Of a stretch of DNA of 64,000 nucleotides, positions 16,789 through 34,961 are shown one piece after another. Positions within the stretch are counted from its first letter, which is position 1; every line of letters begins with the position of its first letter. This DNA is from Leucoraja ocellata (taxonomy: Eukaryota). The translations under genes and the position numbers were made by a program. The stretch is taken from assembly GCA_036785375.1 (NCBI GenBank), contig JAWMAR010000160.1, forward strand, positions 1,922,001 through 1,986,000. The letters are read 5' to 3'. A model generated the notes under the pieces. The model was given only the letters and a program-made list of their open reading frames with translations. It was not told the origin of the DNA and ran no database searches.

Positions 16789-17185
16789 TCACTGTGTAAC
16801 ATTTGGGTACGGGACTGGTGAGGACACGTCTGTCACTGTATAACACTGGGGTACTGTAACGGAGGGGACACGTCTGTAACTGTATAACACTGGGATACAG
16901 CACTGGCAGGGACAGGTCCGTCACCGTGCAACACTGGGGTACTGTAATGGTGGGGACAGGTCTGTACCTGTACAACACTGGGGTACAGTACCGGTGGAGA
17001 TGGGTCGGTCACCGTGTAACCCTGGGGTACATTACTGATGGGGACAGGATCGTCACTGTGTAACACTGGGGTACAGTACTGATGGGGATAACTCTGTCAC
17101 TGGGGTACAATACTGGTGGGGACAGGTCTGTCATTGTGTAACACTAGGGTGCAAACCTGTCATGTATAATACTGGAATGCAGTAT
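16789..17185. repeat. 44-bp minisatellite (~8.5 degenerate copies), consensus TCACTGTGTAACACTGGGGTACAGTACTGGTGGGGACAGGTCTG
   Basis: Units start at 16789, 16833, 16877, 16921, 16965, 17009, 17053, 17097 (10-bp deletion) and 17131. Confidence 0.9.
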
Positions 17186-17988: not shown

Positions 17989-18266
17989 CTAACTCACAGG
18001 TGTAATACAACTATTATTATTTGGTCCAGTCTGTGAGTTATTGTCATTGCCGTTTGAAATCACTTCCTGCAAAGGAAAAATGTCCAGAGGTTCATTCACA
18101 CGAGGGATTTCTTGGTTTCTGCTGGGTGTTGGATTCAGTACATTATATTCTCCTGTTTTCCGAGCTCTGTCGATCAGGCAATAGCAGATTATTGCCACTA
18201 TTATTATTATTATTGCCCCCACAATTGAAAAGACCATGATGATGATCACCCATGACGATTCTTCAC
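17989..18266 (-). CDS. Gene A exon 6: transmembrane helix and cytoplasmic tail
   Basis: Acceptor ttatccacag|GT in phase 1. TM WVIIIMVFSIVGAIIIIIVAIICYCLI, followed by RARKTGEYNV. Stop TAG at 17991-17989. Spliced CDS total 1515 nt = 504 aa. Confidence 0.88.
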
Positions 18267-18403: not shown

Positions 18404-19626
18404 CAGGTGCACAACCTTTTATCCGAAAGCCTTGGGACCAGACACTTGTCGGATTTCGGACATTTTCGGATTTCAGAATGGAAGATTTTTAGCGTAGATT
18501 AGGTAGGTAGCGCGGGCGGCTTGAAAAGTCTGGAGCTGCTGCCTCCTCCCCGGTGACCGGGAGAATCATTGCATAAATGTTAGTCAGTTAGTTTGGAGGG
18601 ATTTTATGTGGTGGTGGTGGAGTCGGGGTGAAGGGGGAAACTTTAATTCTTAGTCCCCTACCTGGTCGGCGACTCCCAACCTCGCGGAGCTGGAGGCTCC
18701 GTCCGGCCGCGGGCGGCGCCGGTTGTAGCTCCGACCCCGGCAACTCTACCCCTGGCTGCGAGGCGCTCCAAATCCAGCGCGGCCCGCGGTCGGACGTCCC
18801 AGCTCCGGGAATGTCGGGAGTCGGCGGCGTCGCGCTGGGATACCAGCGGGGAGCGGGCAATGCCTTACCGGGTCGCCGTGCGGCAAGCTCCGGAGCGCTG
18901 TGGCCGCCAACACACATCGCGGAGCATCGCTGGATTTGGAGCCGCGGAGCTGGGGGCTCCGTCCGGCCGCGGGCGGCGCCGGTTGGAGCTCCGACCCCGG
19001 CAACTCTACCCCTGGCTGCGCGGCTCCAAATCCAGCGACGCTCCGCGATGTTGTGTGTCGGCGGCCACAGCGCTCCGGAGCTTGCCGCACGGCGACCCGG
19101 TAAGGCATTGCCCGCTCCCCGCTGGTTTCCCAGCGCGACGCCGCCGACTCCCGACATTCGCGGAGCTGGGGCGTCCGGTCGCGGGCGGCGCTGGACTTGG
19201 AGCGCCTCGCAGCCAGGGGTAGAGTTGCCGGGGTCGGAGCTCCAACCGGCGCCGCCCGCAGCCCCAACGGCCACAGCGCTGCGGAGCTTACTGCACGGCG
19301 ACCCGGTAATGCATTGACCGCTCCCCGCCTCTCCGACCAGGTAGGGGACTAAGAATTAAAGTTTACCCCTTCACCCCCCTTCACATAAAAGCCCTCCAAA
19401 CTAACTGACTAACATTTAAGCAATGATTTACAGATGTTTAAGCGTCTCCCGGTCTCCAGGGAGGAGGCAGCCGCTACAGTAGTACAGACCTGGGTTGACC
19501 GTGGGTCGTTTTGGGTCAAGTTTGGCGCCAAACGCGAGCTTTGGTGCGCAGACGACATCTGGAAAAAATGGCCGGTTTTCGGAGCTTTTCGGTTTCTGGA
19601 ACACCGGATAAAAGGTTGTGCACCTG
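18404..19626. mobile_element. Non-autonomous Tc1/mariner(pogo)-type fold-back element
   Basis: Perfect TIRs CAGGTGCACAACCTTTTATCCG. TA TSDs at 18402-18403 and 19627-19628. GC-rich interior made of nested inverted repeats; no transposase. Confidence 0.85.
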
Positions 19627-23701: not shown

Positions 23702-23986
23702 TTTGCACATTGAGTGTGATATTCTGTTGCTTAACAATGGGTTCAGGGTGATTTTGGAGTGTCAGTTTAGCCACACAAGTCAACTGCTGTCCATTCATCT
23801 CCATCTTTGGATGCAAAGTGTGGTAGATAGTGTGCTCTGTACTGGATGACTCGCTTGGCAAAGACATATTCCCATTCTTCAGTGTAAGTTGAAGTACTCC
23901 CGAGACATTAAACACACTGCAGGTAATATTCACCGGTTTTCCATCGATGATGGTCAGTGATGCTTGGATTACAGGTTCGGAGAAAA
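23702..23986 (-). CDS. Gene A exon 5: Ig domain D4
   Basis: Acceptor ctgttgttgcag|TT, donor CAAA|GTAAGT, 285 nt. VFSEPVI...NITCSV...NGQQLTCVAKL...ITLNVQ. Confidence 0.9.
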
Positions 23987-26235: not shown

Positions 26236-26529
26236 CGTACACCTCAATGGAAATGTTGGCACTCCTTGTTAGATTTAATGGATAATCCTCAAAATCTGCT
26301 CTGCAGGTGAATTCAGTCAGTCCTGTGTCTTGTGGTGTCCATGTTGTTGTTGCCCAGATATCGTGGGATGATGACGTCTTTGTAACTGGCTTCAGTTCTT
26401 CTTCATTGTGAAACCATGTTACAGTCAACTTCTCAGCTGGATAGACATTTTGGACCTCACATTCCAACGTGGCCTCCTCATTCACTTCAATGGGCTTTCT
26501 GTTGAGGATTCTAGGAGGCTTTGGAAAAG
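26236..26529 (-). CDS. Gene A exon 4: Ig domain D3
   Basis: Acceptor gtcttttcag|CT, donor TACG|GTAAG, 294 nt. SFPKPPRI...LECEVQNVYPAEKLTVTWF...FTCRA. Confidence 0.92.
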
Positions 26530-28135: not shown

Positions 28136-28450
28136 AGTATGTTTGCAGAGTCACGGAGGAGGATTCGATTTCTTTTGTGGTATTTGTGTCCAAGTCCAGC
28201 TCTGCCAAGCATGTGTACACTTGTCCATCCTCAGCCATGCTTGCATTGAGATTGAGAATATTGACCACCGGAGTCACATCTTCTGGAAACTTTTGTTCCG
28301 TTGGGTGAACTAACTTCACAACTTTGCTCCCTCTGAGCCACTTGAGATGGAGCTTGGTGTTTGGATACACTCTTGGACCGGTGCAATTAAGCTGATATGT
28401 TTTGTTAATTTCCATCACTTTTGGATGTGGTGCAATGACAAGATCTCGAT
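28136..28450 (-). CDS. Gene A exon 3: Ig domain D2
   Basis: Acceptor ctccttcaacag|AT, donor TACT|GTGAG, 315 nt. NCTGPRVYP...KWLRG...DGQVYTCLAELDL. Paralogous to 53117-53431, which has the same length. Confidence 0.93.
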
Positions 28451-29948: not shown

Positions 29949-30224
29949 TGTACACAGTGATCACTGTTGTGGCCTCAACTTGAGTATTGTTTTCAGATTT
30001 GCACAATGCACTGCAAACCATTGGTAAATCCCACCTCTTCACAGTTGGGATTTGGCATGTGATTGAGTTGTTAACTTCATTGCAATATTTATTTTGCCCT
30101 GGTTTTAGTTCCATGAATATAATAGGATCTAAACATGTGGTTCTGCAGGTCACATTCAAAGAGCCATCGATTTCCACAGCTAGAGTGTCTGTGTTTATCT
30201 GAACCTCAAATCCATTCCCTTTAG
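29949..30224 (-). CDS. Gene A exon 2: ICAM-type N-terminal Ig domain D1
   Basis: Acceptor ttttctctgacag|CT, donor TACA|GTAAGT, 276 nt, phase 1-1. CRTTC...CSALC double-disulfide pattern typical of ICAM/VCAM/MAdCAM D1. Glu in IFMEL at the ICAM GIET-like position. Confidence 0.92.
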
Positions 30225-31533: not shown

Positions 31534-31600
31534 TTGTTAACGTGAATACGAACAAGACGAGGTGAAGGTATCTCCCGCTTGAAGTGAGTGTAGAGACCAT
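31534..31600 (-). CDS. Gene A (ICAM-like, 4 Ig domains) exon 1: signal peptide MVSTLTSSGRYLHLVLFVFTLT
   Basis: ATG at 31600-31598 in good Kozak context (GCAGTCATGG). 22 codons + 1 nt, then donor A|GTTAGT. Hydrophobic core present. Phase 1 joins exon 2 in frame. Same 67-nt length as exon 1 of gene B. Confidence 0.8.
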
Positions 31601-31709
31601 GACTGCGACCCTCCTCGGCGCCTGCTGCCTCTCCGATCACCGCTCGTCCAAATGAACACAGCGCTCACACAGTCCACACACTCGCTGTTAATGCAAACAA
31701 TCTCTCTGA

Positions 31710-31720
31710 TTTCCCGGAAA
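31710..31720 (-). promoter_or_regulatory. GAS/STAT palindrome TTTCCGGGAAA in gene A promoter
   Basis: + strand TTTCCCGGAAA, 110 bp upstream of the gene A ATG. Same sequence as the recalled human ICAM1 palindromic IFN-gamma response element. Confidence 0.7.
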
Positions 31721-31828
31721 CAATTCAGAAACTAAACTTCAGAGAAAGCCCCTAAAAAAAAGAGTTTAAAGAAAAAGCCTCCCCTCGGCTCAACTTTGTG
31801 CTCGCCGTTGCAACAGAGACTGACTTGG

Positions 31829-31838
31829 GGAAAGTCCA
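31829..31838 (-). promoter_or_regulatory. NF-kB-like site TGGACTTTCC in gene A promoter
   Basis: + strand GGAAAGTCCA. One mismatch from the canonical GGGACTTTCC. ~230 bp upstream of the ATG. Confidence 0.6.
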
Positions 31839-33088
31839 GTGACAATCGTGCGGTAAACACGCCCATAATGTGCAGAGCGATGACCACTGCCGAGAGGTAT
31901 GTACAGGGTCTTTGCTGTAGACTGCCCTTAACATCAGTGGAAGATTCACACTGGATCTGAGCTCTGATAATCAGCGCAATGGGGTTACTCCCCATCTCTC
32001 TCACTCCCTCACATTACATATGAAGAAAGACTGGATAGACTCGGTTTGTACTCGCTAGAATTTAGAAGGTTGAGGGGGGATCTTATAGAAACTTACAAAA
32101 TTCTTAAGGGGTTGGACAGGCTAGATGCAGGAAGATTGCTCCCGATGTTGGGGAAGTCCAGAACAAGGAGGTCACAGTTTAAGGATAAGGGGGAACATTT
32201 TTAGGACCGAGATGAGAAAAACATTTTTCACACAGAGAGTGGCGAATCTGTGGAATTCTCTGCCACAGAAGGTAGTTGAGGCCAGTTCATTGGCTATATT
32301 TAAGAGGGAGTTAGATGAGGAACTTGTGGCTAAAGGGATCAGGGGGTATGGAGAGAAGGCAGGTACAGGATACTGAGTTGGATGATCAGCCATGATCATA
32401 TTGAATGGCCGAATGGCCTACTCCTGCACCTATTTTCTATGCTTCTATGCTTCTATTCCCATCACAGTAAACCAGCATCTGCAGTTCCTTCCTTCACAGT
32501 AACCCCCCCCCCCTCCCACCACACACACACACACACCCCTCCTGCCTCTCATCATAGACCTCCCACATTCCCATCACTGTAACCCCCTCCCTACCCAGTC
32601 TCCTGTCACAGTAACAACCCCCCCCCCTGTTGTTCCCCATCATAGTTCATACCTTCATAAGCTCTATAAGCAGAATTAGACCCATCAAGTCTACTCCACC
32701 AATCAATCTTTGCTGATCTATCTCTTCCTCTCAATCTTTGCTGATCTATCTTTCATTCTGCTGCCTTTTCCCCATAGCCCCTGACACCCATACGAATCGA
32801 GTATCTGTCATTCTCTAAAAATATTACCCCCCACAATAATGAATTCCACAGTTTCACCACCCTCTGACTGAAGAACTTCCTCCCTATCTCCTTTTTAAAG
32901 GTACGTCCTTTTATTCTGAGGCTATGGCCTCTGGTCCTCGACTCCTCCCACTAGTGGAAACATCCTCTCCACATCCACACTATCCAGCCTCTGCAAAAGT
33001 CATAGATAGGTTTCTTGAACTGCTTGAAGGTAGATAGAAACGCAGGAGAAACTCAGCGGGTGAGGCAGCATCTATGGAGCGAAGCAAT

Positions 33089-33124: not shown

Positions 33125-33375
33125 GAAACATCACCTAGTCCTTCACTCCATAGATGCTGCCTGACTCACTGAGTTTCTCCAGCATTTTTATCTACCTTCG
33201 ATTTTTCCAGCATCTGAACCGCTTTAGATCGTTTGACAAATGCTGAAGACTTGGACATCACCTGGGATTAGCCTTCATGGTTCATTCACAGGGAACACAT
33301 ATATCACCTTCTTTGGTGCACTGTCCTCTACACTCTTTCTGTGAATTCTGTGACGGCAATGGCATATTCATCTAG

Positions 33376-34961
33376 CATAGTGAACCCCAAGAAGGCTACC
33401 GGCCCAGATGGAGTCCCTGGTAAGGTGCTCAAAGCGCGCGCCCACCAGCTCACTGCCATCTTCACCAGAATTTTCAACCTCTCCCTGGCCCAGGCAGTTA
33501 TTCCGTCCTGCCTAAAATCAGCCACAATCGTCCCTGTGCCGAAGAAGTCTACCATCACCAGCCTTAATGACTACCGTCCTGTGGCCCTCACTCCGGTAAT
33601 CACAAAGTGCTTCGAGAGGTTGGTCCTCCAGCACATCAAGGACTATCTACCACCAGACTTCGACCCCCACCAATTCGCCTATCGCCAAAACAGATCCACA
33701 GAAGACGCCATTACCGTAGCTCTCCACTCTGTGCTGAGCCATCTGGAGCAGGGGCAGAGCTACGTCCGGATGCTCTTTGTGGATTTTAGTTCAGCCTTTA
33801 ATACAATCATTCCGGACATTCTCATTGGTAAACTGGTCACTCTCGGCCTCCCCACTGTCACATGTGCCTGGATAAAGGATTTCCTCACCAACCGGCCCCA
33901 GACTGTGAGACTCGGCCCCCACCTCTCCTCCACTCGCAGGTTGAGTACCGGTTCCCCACAGGGCTGTGTGCTAAGCCCCCTCTTATACTGTCTCTACACC
34001 TACGACTGTAGTCCGGCCCACAACAACAACCGCATCGTCAAATTTGCTGACGACACTACTGTGGTCGGACTTATTTCAAAGGGAGACGAGGCAGCCTACA
34101 GAGAGGAAGTCCTGAAGTTGACAACCTGGTGCTCAGAAAACAACCTGGCTCTGAACACCAGGAAAACAAAAGAGCTCATTGTCGACTTCAGGAGGCACAG
34201 CACCGACTTAGCCCCCCTACACATCAACGGCGAGTGTGTGGAGAGGGTCAACACCTTCCGGTTTCTCGGCGTCCATATCGCTGCTGACATCTCCTGGACG
34301 GACAACACGACAGCGGTCATCAAGAAGGCTCAGCAGCGGCTGCACTTCCTGAGGGTCCTCAGGAAGCACAACCTGGACTCTAACCTGCTGCTGACCTTCT
34401 ACCGCTCGTCCATCGAGAGCCTGCTGACATACTGCATTACAGCATGGTATGGCAGCTGCACCATGGCAGACAGGGAGAGGCTTCAGAGGGTAACCAGGAC
34501 AGCGCAGAGGATCATTGGCTGCCCTCTCCCCTCCCTGATGGACATCTACACCTCCCGCTGCCTTAGCAGGGCAAAGAAGATCATCAAAGACAGCTCCCAT
34601 CCTGCGTTTGGACTGTTCGACCTGCTGCCCTCTGGAAGGCGCTATAGGTGCATCAAATCCAGGACAAACAGACTCAGGAAAAGTTGCTTTCCGAGAATTA
34701 TAACTACTATAAATTCAAATTCACACATGCACTGACTACACCGCCCAACACGGACTTCCATCTGTATATATGTACATATGTATATAGCGCCGCAGAATTT
34801 GTGCACCTATCCCCCCCCCCCCCATCTCCCTTCTGTTTTTTGTTTTTTCTGTTTTTTGTTTTTTGTGCTAAATTGTATGTATGCACTGAGTACGAGCAGC
34901 TTTCAGTTTCACTGTACATGTATAGTGACAATAAATGGCATATCTATCTATATCTATCTAG
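33376..34961 (+). mobile_element. Young 5'-truncated Rex1/Babar-type non-LTR retrotransposon (RT plus C-terminal domain)
   Basis: Uninterrupted ORF to 34735 with [33 protein letters not shown] and FLG RT motifs. 3' UTR ends in AATAAA plus a (TATC)n tail. Confidence 0.9.

What the first reader, a model, noticed from the sequence alone, without database searches (positions are those of the whole stretch)
31600..31850. Mammalian ICAM1-style cytokine-inducible promoter (GAS + kB) apparently conserved in a cartilaginous fish
Seen: on the gene A sense strand, CGATTG (31848-31843), then TGGACTTTCC (31838-31829), a 108-bp gap, TTTCCGGGAAA (31720-31710), 109 bp, then ATG. Recalled knowledge, to be verified: the human ICAM1 promoter uses the identical TTTCCGGGAAA STAT1/STAT3 palindrome roughly 115 bp upstream of the ATG. 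It also has a T-initiated variant kB site (TGGAAATTCC) roughly 225 bp upstream, with a C/EBP-type GATTG just 5' of it. Inference: the IFN-gamma x TNF/IL-1 synergy module, including order and spacing, may date from the origin of jawed vertebrates.
Basis: partly seen in the sequence, partly recalled or inferred. Interest (0 to 1): 0.75.

Follow-up and report, generated by a model that had tools for sequence, protein, structure and literature searches.

The report
Skate ICAM gene's cytokine-response promoter
A skate cell-adhesion gene of the ICAM family carries a perfect STAT site and a variant NF-kB-type site before its start codon, laid out much as in human ICAM1, so it is likely switched on by inflammatory cytokines; whether the layout is inherited from the first jawed fish is untested.

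Summary
The motifs are at the stated coordinates. The 11-bp GAS is beyond chance (3 of 20,000 shuffles), the kB variant modestly so (683 of 20,000); GATTG alone is chance-level. Gene A is a four-Ig ICAM-family gene of a skate, but part of a cartilaginous-fish expansion, not an ICAM1 orthologue (AU p 2e-5). Spacing resembles human ICAM1 (kB-GAS 108 versus about 101 bp), but the human ETS, Sp1 and TATA elements are missing and the C/EBP match is poor. Spliced contigs from 2 of 2 presumed RNA assemblies of a close relative reach 31818 and 31814, beside an initiator at 31821: those transcripts contain the GAS, and the kB sits at -17..-8. A second initiator at 31653 would give human-like positions but has no RNA support. 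One genomic copy in the relative lacks the whole module. No informative orthologous promoter could be fetched, so conservation is untested. Verdict: a probably functional STAT/NF-kB-responsive promoter; common descent of the module from the jawed-vertebrate ancestor is possible (about 0.35), not shown.

The parts
31858..31864 (-). KLF/SP-type box GGGCGTG, -43..-37 from the distal initiator
   Evidence: motif consensus recalled; function inferred
31843..31848 (-). CGATTG hexamer, also present 5' of the human ICAM1 kB site; poor C/EBP match here (ATTGT, 4-nt spacer)
31829..31838 (-). Variant kB-type site TGGACTTTCC (8 of 10 identical to the human TGGAAATTCC; fits the recalled RelA/c-Rel class NGGRNWTTCC)
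31818..31823 (-). Distal initiator match TCAGTC, A at 31821; likely basal start site
   Evidence: presumed-RNA contigs end at 31818 and 31814
31601..31821 (-). Likely 221-nt 5' leader with no upstream ATG
   Evidence: covered from 31818; 46 of 2552 equal stretches lack ATG
31738..31746 (-). Second, loose GAS TTCTCTGAA, 18 bp from the main 9-mer
   Evidence: role inferred
31710..31720 (-). Perfect GAS palindrome TTTCCGGGAAA
31650..31655 (-). Proximal initiator match TCATTT, A at 31653; would put kB at -185..-176 and GAS at -67..-57
   Evidence: no RNA support obtained
31679..31908 (.). Stretch absent (replaced by 32 other letters) in one genomic contig of organism B; holds kB, distal initiator and both GAS
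   Evidence: run X5 record 8, depth 23 against 25.7 for the intact copy
31534..31600 (-). Gene A exon 1 coding part (signal peptide)
29949..30224 (-). Gene A Ig D1 (ICAM_N), with the Glu column of the family
28136..28450 (-). Gene A Ig D2
26236..26529 (-). Gene A Ig D3 (ICAM1_3_5_D2 match)
23702..23986 (-). Gene A Ig D4
17989..18266 (-). Gene A transmembrane and tail exon with stop

Best explanation
This is the 5' end of a skate ICAM-family gene, with a perfect GAS and a variant kB-type site that likely let STAT and NF-kB factors raise its transcription during inflammation. Basal transcripts likely start at a TATA-less initiator near 31821, so the GAS would act from about +100 inside the leader and the kB site from the edge of the core promoter; induced transcripts may instead start at 31653, which would give human-like positions. 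Cytokine-activated STAT dimers (STAT1 after IFN-gamma, STAT3 after IL-6-type signals, by analogy with human) would bind the GAS, perhaps helped by the loose GAS beside it; RelA/c-Rel would bind the kB site after TNF, IL-1 or TLR signals. Shown: motifs, gene identity, transcripts spanning the GAS in a relative. Inferred: binding, inducibility, synergy, start sites. The gene is at most a co-orthologue of the whole tetrapod ICAM set.
For: GAS 11-mer unique in 64 kb and in 3 of 20,000 shuffles; GAS 9-mer plus kB class in 3 of 20,000. Both lie within 240 bp of the start codon of an ICAM-family gene, the family whose human member is induced through these two element types (review section). CpG enrichment begins near 31900 (o/e 0.88 at 31600-31830 against 0.46 for the window). 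Two spliced contigs from two studies end 3 and 7 nt inside the distal initiator, and the 221-nt leader has no upstream ATG (P about 0.02). The neighbouring paralogue gene B has no GAS and no alignable promoter, so the motif is not a generic feature of these exons.
Against: No binding or induction data. The kB class alone is only modestly enriched (P 0.03-0.1) and would overlap the core promoter of the distal start. Human partner elements are missing: no GGAA/TTCC between kB and GAS, no GGGCGG near, no TATAAA (human ETS sites and TATAAA). One copy in organism B has lost the whole module while keeping exon 1. The RNA label of X13 and X18 is a guess, contigs cannot show a start, and both come from a relative's paralogues or alleles; the raw-read run X23 laid 2 reads, none on the exon.
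Confidence: 0.6

Rival explanations
1. Only the GAS works. The gene is a STAT target (IFN-gamma or IL-6 family); the kB-like 10-mer and CGATTG are chance core-promoter sequence beside the initiator.
For: kB class P 0.03-0.1 in 300 bp, GATTG P 0.42; site at -17..-8 of the likely basal start; a 12-nt near-copy occurs in the LINE-like fragment 322 bp upstream.
Against: Same T-first form, orientation, order and near-equal distance to the GAS as in human; a profile of the window's LINE-like fragments finds no match in the promoter.
Confidence: 0.2
2. All motifs are chance matches in a constitutive promoter and leader, picked out because the human ICAM1 promoter is well known.
For: Post-hoc choice of motifs; organism B differs at only 2 of 306 positions, so their retention there says nothing; one copy lacks the module.
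Against: The GAS 11-mer is expected 0.05 times per 64 kb and falls 109 bp from an ICAM start codon.
Confidence: 0.12
3. The GAS binds another STAT (STAT5 or STAT3, possibly as a tetramer on the two adjacent GAS) and sets leukocyte or developmental expression, not the IFN-gamma x TNF response.
For: Two TTCN3GAA sites 18 bp apart; all these STATs share the core (recalled); a shark 'Icam3' marks splenic myeloid clusters (passage, PMC10529500); transcripts are seen in runs not known to be stimulated.
Against: A kB-type site accompanies it; no data on which STAT binds.
Confidence: 0.08

Closest known systems
Human ICAM1 proximal promoter (variant kB -187..-178, adjacent C/EBP element, IFN-gamma/IL-6 response element)
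   Same: T-first kB-type site upstream of a GAS, same orientation and order; gap 108 against about 101; GAS about 110-120 bp before ATG; CGATTG 5' of the kB site. Identity of the 11-bp GAS with the human one is recalled, not seen in a paper here.
   Different: kB core differs at 2 of 10 positions; CGATTG spacer 4 against 8 nt and C/EBP half-site ATTGC replaced by ATTGT; ETS sites -118 and -96, Sp1 box (recalled) and TATAAA absent; observed transcripts include the GAS; no collinear similarity between the motifs by eye against the 95 nt tiled by the paper's oligonucleotides.
ICAM family (Pfam ICAM_N PF03921, ICAM1_3_5_D2 PF21146)
   Same: Signal exon, one Ig domain per exon, four-Cys D1 with a Glu in the column after the second Cys, transmembrane and tail.
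   Different: Four Ig domains; falls in an all-chondrichthyan clade (100/99) with its own duplications; a chondrichthyan-only profile scores ICAM5, ICAM2 and ICAM1 alike (E 9e-22, 1.5e-20, 4e-19; VCAM1 1e-11).
RefSeq skate and ray 'ICAM-like / VCAM1-like' proteins (XP_055520211.1, XP_055520209.1, XP_078285646.1)
   Same: 387 of 412 residues identical to XP_055520211.1 over the first five exons; nearest D1-D2 neighbour is XP_055520209.1.
   Different: Those records say nothing about the promoter; their names are automatic and mixed.

Membership tests
ICAM family | N-terminal ICAM_N domain followed by C2/I-set Ig domains, TM and short tail | tested here: met
   (23.7 bits, cut-off 21)
ICAM family | Glu in D1 at the integrin I-domain binding position (E34/E37) | tested here: inconclusive
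   Glu at the motif position after the second Cys, nearly invariant column E61; role from PMC4237329 passage; no direct alignment to human E34 was printed
ICAM1 orthologue | Groups with mammalian ICAM1 apart from other ICAMs | tested here: not met
   AU p 2.35e-5 (four skate rows plus echidna ICAM1) and 0.008 (all chondrichthyan rows plus echidna ICAM1); only one mammalian ICAM1 in the set
ICAM1 orthologue | Synteny with the human 19p13.2 cluster | not testable with these tools
   no genome held; the window showed only two ICAM-family genes and repeats in the searches run
ICAM1-type inducible promoter | Palindromic GAS | tested here: met
ICAM1-type inducible promoter | Variant T-first kB site about 100 bp upstream of the GAS | tested here: met
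   (8 of 10 identical; 108 bp)
ICAM1-type inducible promoter | C/EBP element beside the kB site | tested here: not met
   no consensus match at 31590-31960 (consensus recalled); only the hexamer CGATTG is shared
ICAM1-type inducible promoter | ETS sites between kB and GAS, Sp1 box and TATA box 3' of the GAS | tested here: not met
   Sp1 position recalled
ICAM1-type inducible promoter | Both sites upstream of the main transcription start | tested here: inconclusive
   2 of 2 presumed-RNA contigs span the GAS; a proximal initiator exists; contigs cannot show starts
ICAM1-type inducible promoter | Motifs conserved in orthologous promoters | tested here: inconclusive
   only organism B reached, 2 differences in 306 bp; metagenome scan gave chance matches
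ICAM1-type inducible promoter | Induction by IFN-gamma and TNF that needs the sites | not testable with these tools
   needs bench work

The most novel reading that the evidence does not exclude
The kB-plus-GAS module is homologous to that of human ICAM1 and has kept its order and roughly 100-bp spacing since the last common ancestor of jawed vertebrates, although the proteins are about a quarter identical and both lineages expanded the family on their own. Skates would use a distal initiator for basal and the initiator at 31653 for induced transcripts, and paralogues would drop out of cytokine control by deleting the module.
Probability: 0.35. Interest if true: 0.6.

Novelty: new member of a known kind. 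Interest (0 to 1): 0.38.

Why it matters
If functional, it gives a concrete, testable target for IFN-gamma/STAT and TNF/NF-kB signalling in cartilaginous fish, where ICAM biology is barely described: one recent survey places ICAM1-3 at the amniote level (PMC13262535, passage) and another dates ICAM1 to bony fish (PMC7916592, passage). If homologous, the cis-wiring for cytokine-driven leukocyte adhesion would be as old as jaws and older than ICAM1 itself as a distinct gene. The logic is textbook, so the gain is in dating it, not in a new mechanism.

Tried and rejected
Own genome: none held. Metagenome pattern scan for the two-motif layout: 119 loci returned (about 320 estimated in all; scan cut at 26 of 64 parts); 0 of 119 matched the promoter by blastn or ICAM proteins by tblastn, 94 of 119 lay inside long ORFs, gap lengths were flat, so chance. 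No listed holder was on record as RNA; raw-read run X23 (about 1 in 100 read) laid 2 reads, none on the exon. Origin of the kB site from the LINE-like element upstream: no profile hit, rejected. Homology of promoters A and B: alignment score 22, reached by 223 of 300 shuffles, rejected. First tree had gene B out of frame and was replaced. The structure search with alignment A1 was circular, since A1 held tetrapod ICAMs, and was redone with chondrichthyan rows only. Rfam: 0 matches. The bacterial promoter scan is irrelevant. Ten paper searches listed no paper whose title or abstract start concerns a chondrichthyan ICAM promoter, and none gave the human GAS sequence with coordinates; most subscription papers are not in the library. 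Earlier findings of this scan: none.

Full report
Observation. All four features are at the stated minus-strand coordinates, with gaps of 108 and 109 bp. The GAS 11-mer occurs once in the window, against 0.05 expected under an order-3 Markov model, and in 3 of 20,000 dinucleotide shuffles of 31601-31900. The 9-mer core appears in 101 of 20,000, the kB class KGGRNWYYCC in 683, both together in 3. GATTG has P 0.42 in 300 bp. These motifs were chosen after the fact, but GAS and kB are the natural prior for an ICAM gene. A second loose GAS lies at 31746-31738.

The gene. Gene A has six coding exons on the minus strand: signal peptide 31600-31534, four Ig exons, and a transmembrane/tail exon ending at 17989. 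D1 matches ICAM_N and D3 matches ICAM1_3_5_D2. It is 387 of 412 residues identical to Leucoraja erinacea XP_055520211.1, so the host is a skate. A second ICAM-family gene (gene B, ATG 58037, three Ig domains found) lies upstream; its promoter has no GAS and does not align with that of gene A. Many rays and sharks carry several such paralogues.

Orthology. I built a D1-D2 tree of 38 rows: the 2 window genes plus 36 of the 136 fetched proteins with a full D1-D2 match, dropping isoforms and most squamates; model LG+G4. All 19 chondrichthyan-side rows form one clade (100/99), and echidna ICAM1 groups with mammalian ICAM5 (100/99). Forcing the skate rows, or all chondrichthyan rows, together with echidna ICAM1 is rejected (AU p 2.35e-5 and 0.008). 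Limits: one mammalian ICAM1 (by its NCBI label), no placental ICAM1-4, and a long-branched outgroup that I read as VCAM1-like from its D1 motif. A chondrichthyan-only profile scores human ICAM5, ICAM2 and ICAM1 about equally and VCAM1 lower. Gene A is therefore ICAM-family, at most co-orthologous to the tetrapod set. Any shared promoter would predate ICAM1 as a separate gene.

The human comparison. From passages and Supplementary Table 1 of PMC3320982 (one supplementary file was not searchable): the kB site TGGAAATTCC lies at -187..-178 from the transcription start, CGATTG lies 8 nt before it, ETS sites lie at -118 and -96, a TATAAA box is present, and a GGAA-type site is listed at -75. That last fits the recalled GAS at -76..-66 and gives a gap of about 101. 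Section 2.1 of the review PMC10215618 confirms the kB, the adjacent C/EBP element and an IFN-gamma/IL-6 element within -116..-36 of the start codon; it gives -187..-178 relative to the translation start, which conflicts with the first paper's numbering. I did not see the human GAS sequence in any paper; its identity with the skate 11-mer is recalled. So order, orientation and spacing are close (108 against about 101; 109 against about 105, recalled), and the hexamer CGATTG is shared. But the kB differs at 2 of 10 positions, the C/EBP half-site ATTGC is ATTGT here, and the ETS sites, the Sp1 box (recalled) and the TATA box have no counterpart.

Where transcription starts. Of 24 runs listed I laid 4: one DNA assembly (X5, 1 of 10 DNA holders of organism B), two presumed RNA assemblies from different studies (X13, X18, 2 of 8), and one raw-read run (X23). 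Both presumed-RNA contigs stop matching at the splice donor 31534 and go on into exon-like sequence, so they are spliced. They reach 5' to 31818 and 31814, 3 and 7 nt inside a TCAKTY initiator with A at 31821. The 221 nt from there to the ATG hold no upstream ATG (46 of 2552 comparable stretches), and CpG enrichment starts near 31900. With this start, the GAS is at +102..+112 and the kB at -17..-8, unlike the main human start. At a word depth of only 9, such long contigs likely reflect a sizeable share of transcripts (inference). Against over-reading: contigs cannot show starts, the RNA label is a guess, the copies are a relative's, and human ICAM1 also has a minor upstream start (recalled). 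A second TCAKTY with A at 31653 would place the kB at -185..-176 and the GAS at -67..-57, close to human; it has no RNA support here and such hexamers occur at 0.0015 per position.

Conservation. Organism B differs at 2 of 306 positions in 31645-31950, neither in the motifs; this is too close to be informative. One X5 contig (depth 23, against 25.7 for the intact copy) lacks 31679-31908, the whole module, with 32 other letters in its place; allele or paralogue cannot be told. No distant orthologous promoter was obtainable: no genome is held and the metagenome scan gave chance matches only.

Mechanism. Most likely (0.6) the GAS binds cytokine-activated STAT dimers and the kB-type site binds RelA/c-Rel, raising transcription of an integrin-ligand gene in inflammation. 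Motifs, gene identity and leader extent are shown; binding, induction and synergy are inferred from the human case. Rivals: GAS only (0.2), chance (0.12), another STAT with a non-inflammatory role (0.08). Indirect context only: a nurse shark plasma protein annotated VCAM1 rises after immunisation (passage, PMC9207270; its relation to this gene is unknown), and shark 'Icam3' marks myeloid clusters (passage, PMC10529500).

Descent or convergence. Against: missing partner elements, no collinear similarity between the motifs by eye, proteins 21-26% identical to the amniote rows of alignment A1, family turnover in both lineages, loss of the module in one copy, and observed transcripts from a different start. 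I put descent at about 0.35.

Literature seen. Passages or named sections only, none in full: PMC3320982 (passages, supplement 2), PMC10215618 (passages, section 2.1), PMC5889392 (passages, one supplement searched), and passages of PMC5561029, PMC8453019, PMC5361151, PMC13262535, PMC4237329, PMC10529500, PMC9207270, PMC10886500, PMC7916592, PMC5768537. The ten searches named under Tried and rejected listed no study of a chondrichthyan ICAM promoter; older subscription papers and unseen supplements could hold one.

Verdict. Real, non-random motifs in the 5' end of a skate ICAM-family gene; a new member of a known kind of promoter logic; the ancient-module claim is open. Interest 0.38.

Noticed in passing
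window 58037-50478 (-): Second ICAM-family gene (gene B): signal exon from 58037, D1 56671-56423, D2 53431-53117, I-set 52613-52335, TM exon near 50642-50478; GC-box promoter without GAS; groups with a Pristis protein in a separate elasmobranch subclade.
   Followed up: partly
window 31679-31908, run X5 record 8: A genomic copy in organism B lacks this 230-bp stretch, with 32 other letters at the joint; part of them resembles the flank at about 31913-31920, as in templated repair insertions (by eye).
   Followed up: partly
window 31534, run X18: In organism B exon 1 is also spliced to a Ser/Thr-rich repeat exon like the N-terminal repeats of XP_055520209.1, implying an ICAM-like form with a mucin-like stretch before D1; no such exon was found in the window.
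   Followed up: partly
window 29949-30224: D1 differs from close paralogues far more than D2-D4 (72-85% against 93-99%), suggesting fast change or exchange of the ligand-binding domain.
   Followed up: no
window 33272-34735 (+): Open 487-residue frame that looks like a LINE reverse transcriptase, 1.7 kb upstream of gene A; a further LINE-like fragment at about 32030-32450 abuts the promoter.
   Followed up: no
window 16789-17133 and 18588-19355: A 44-bp tandem repeat (7 copies) just 3' of gene A, and a GC-rich repetitive stretch in its last intron.
   Followed up: no
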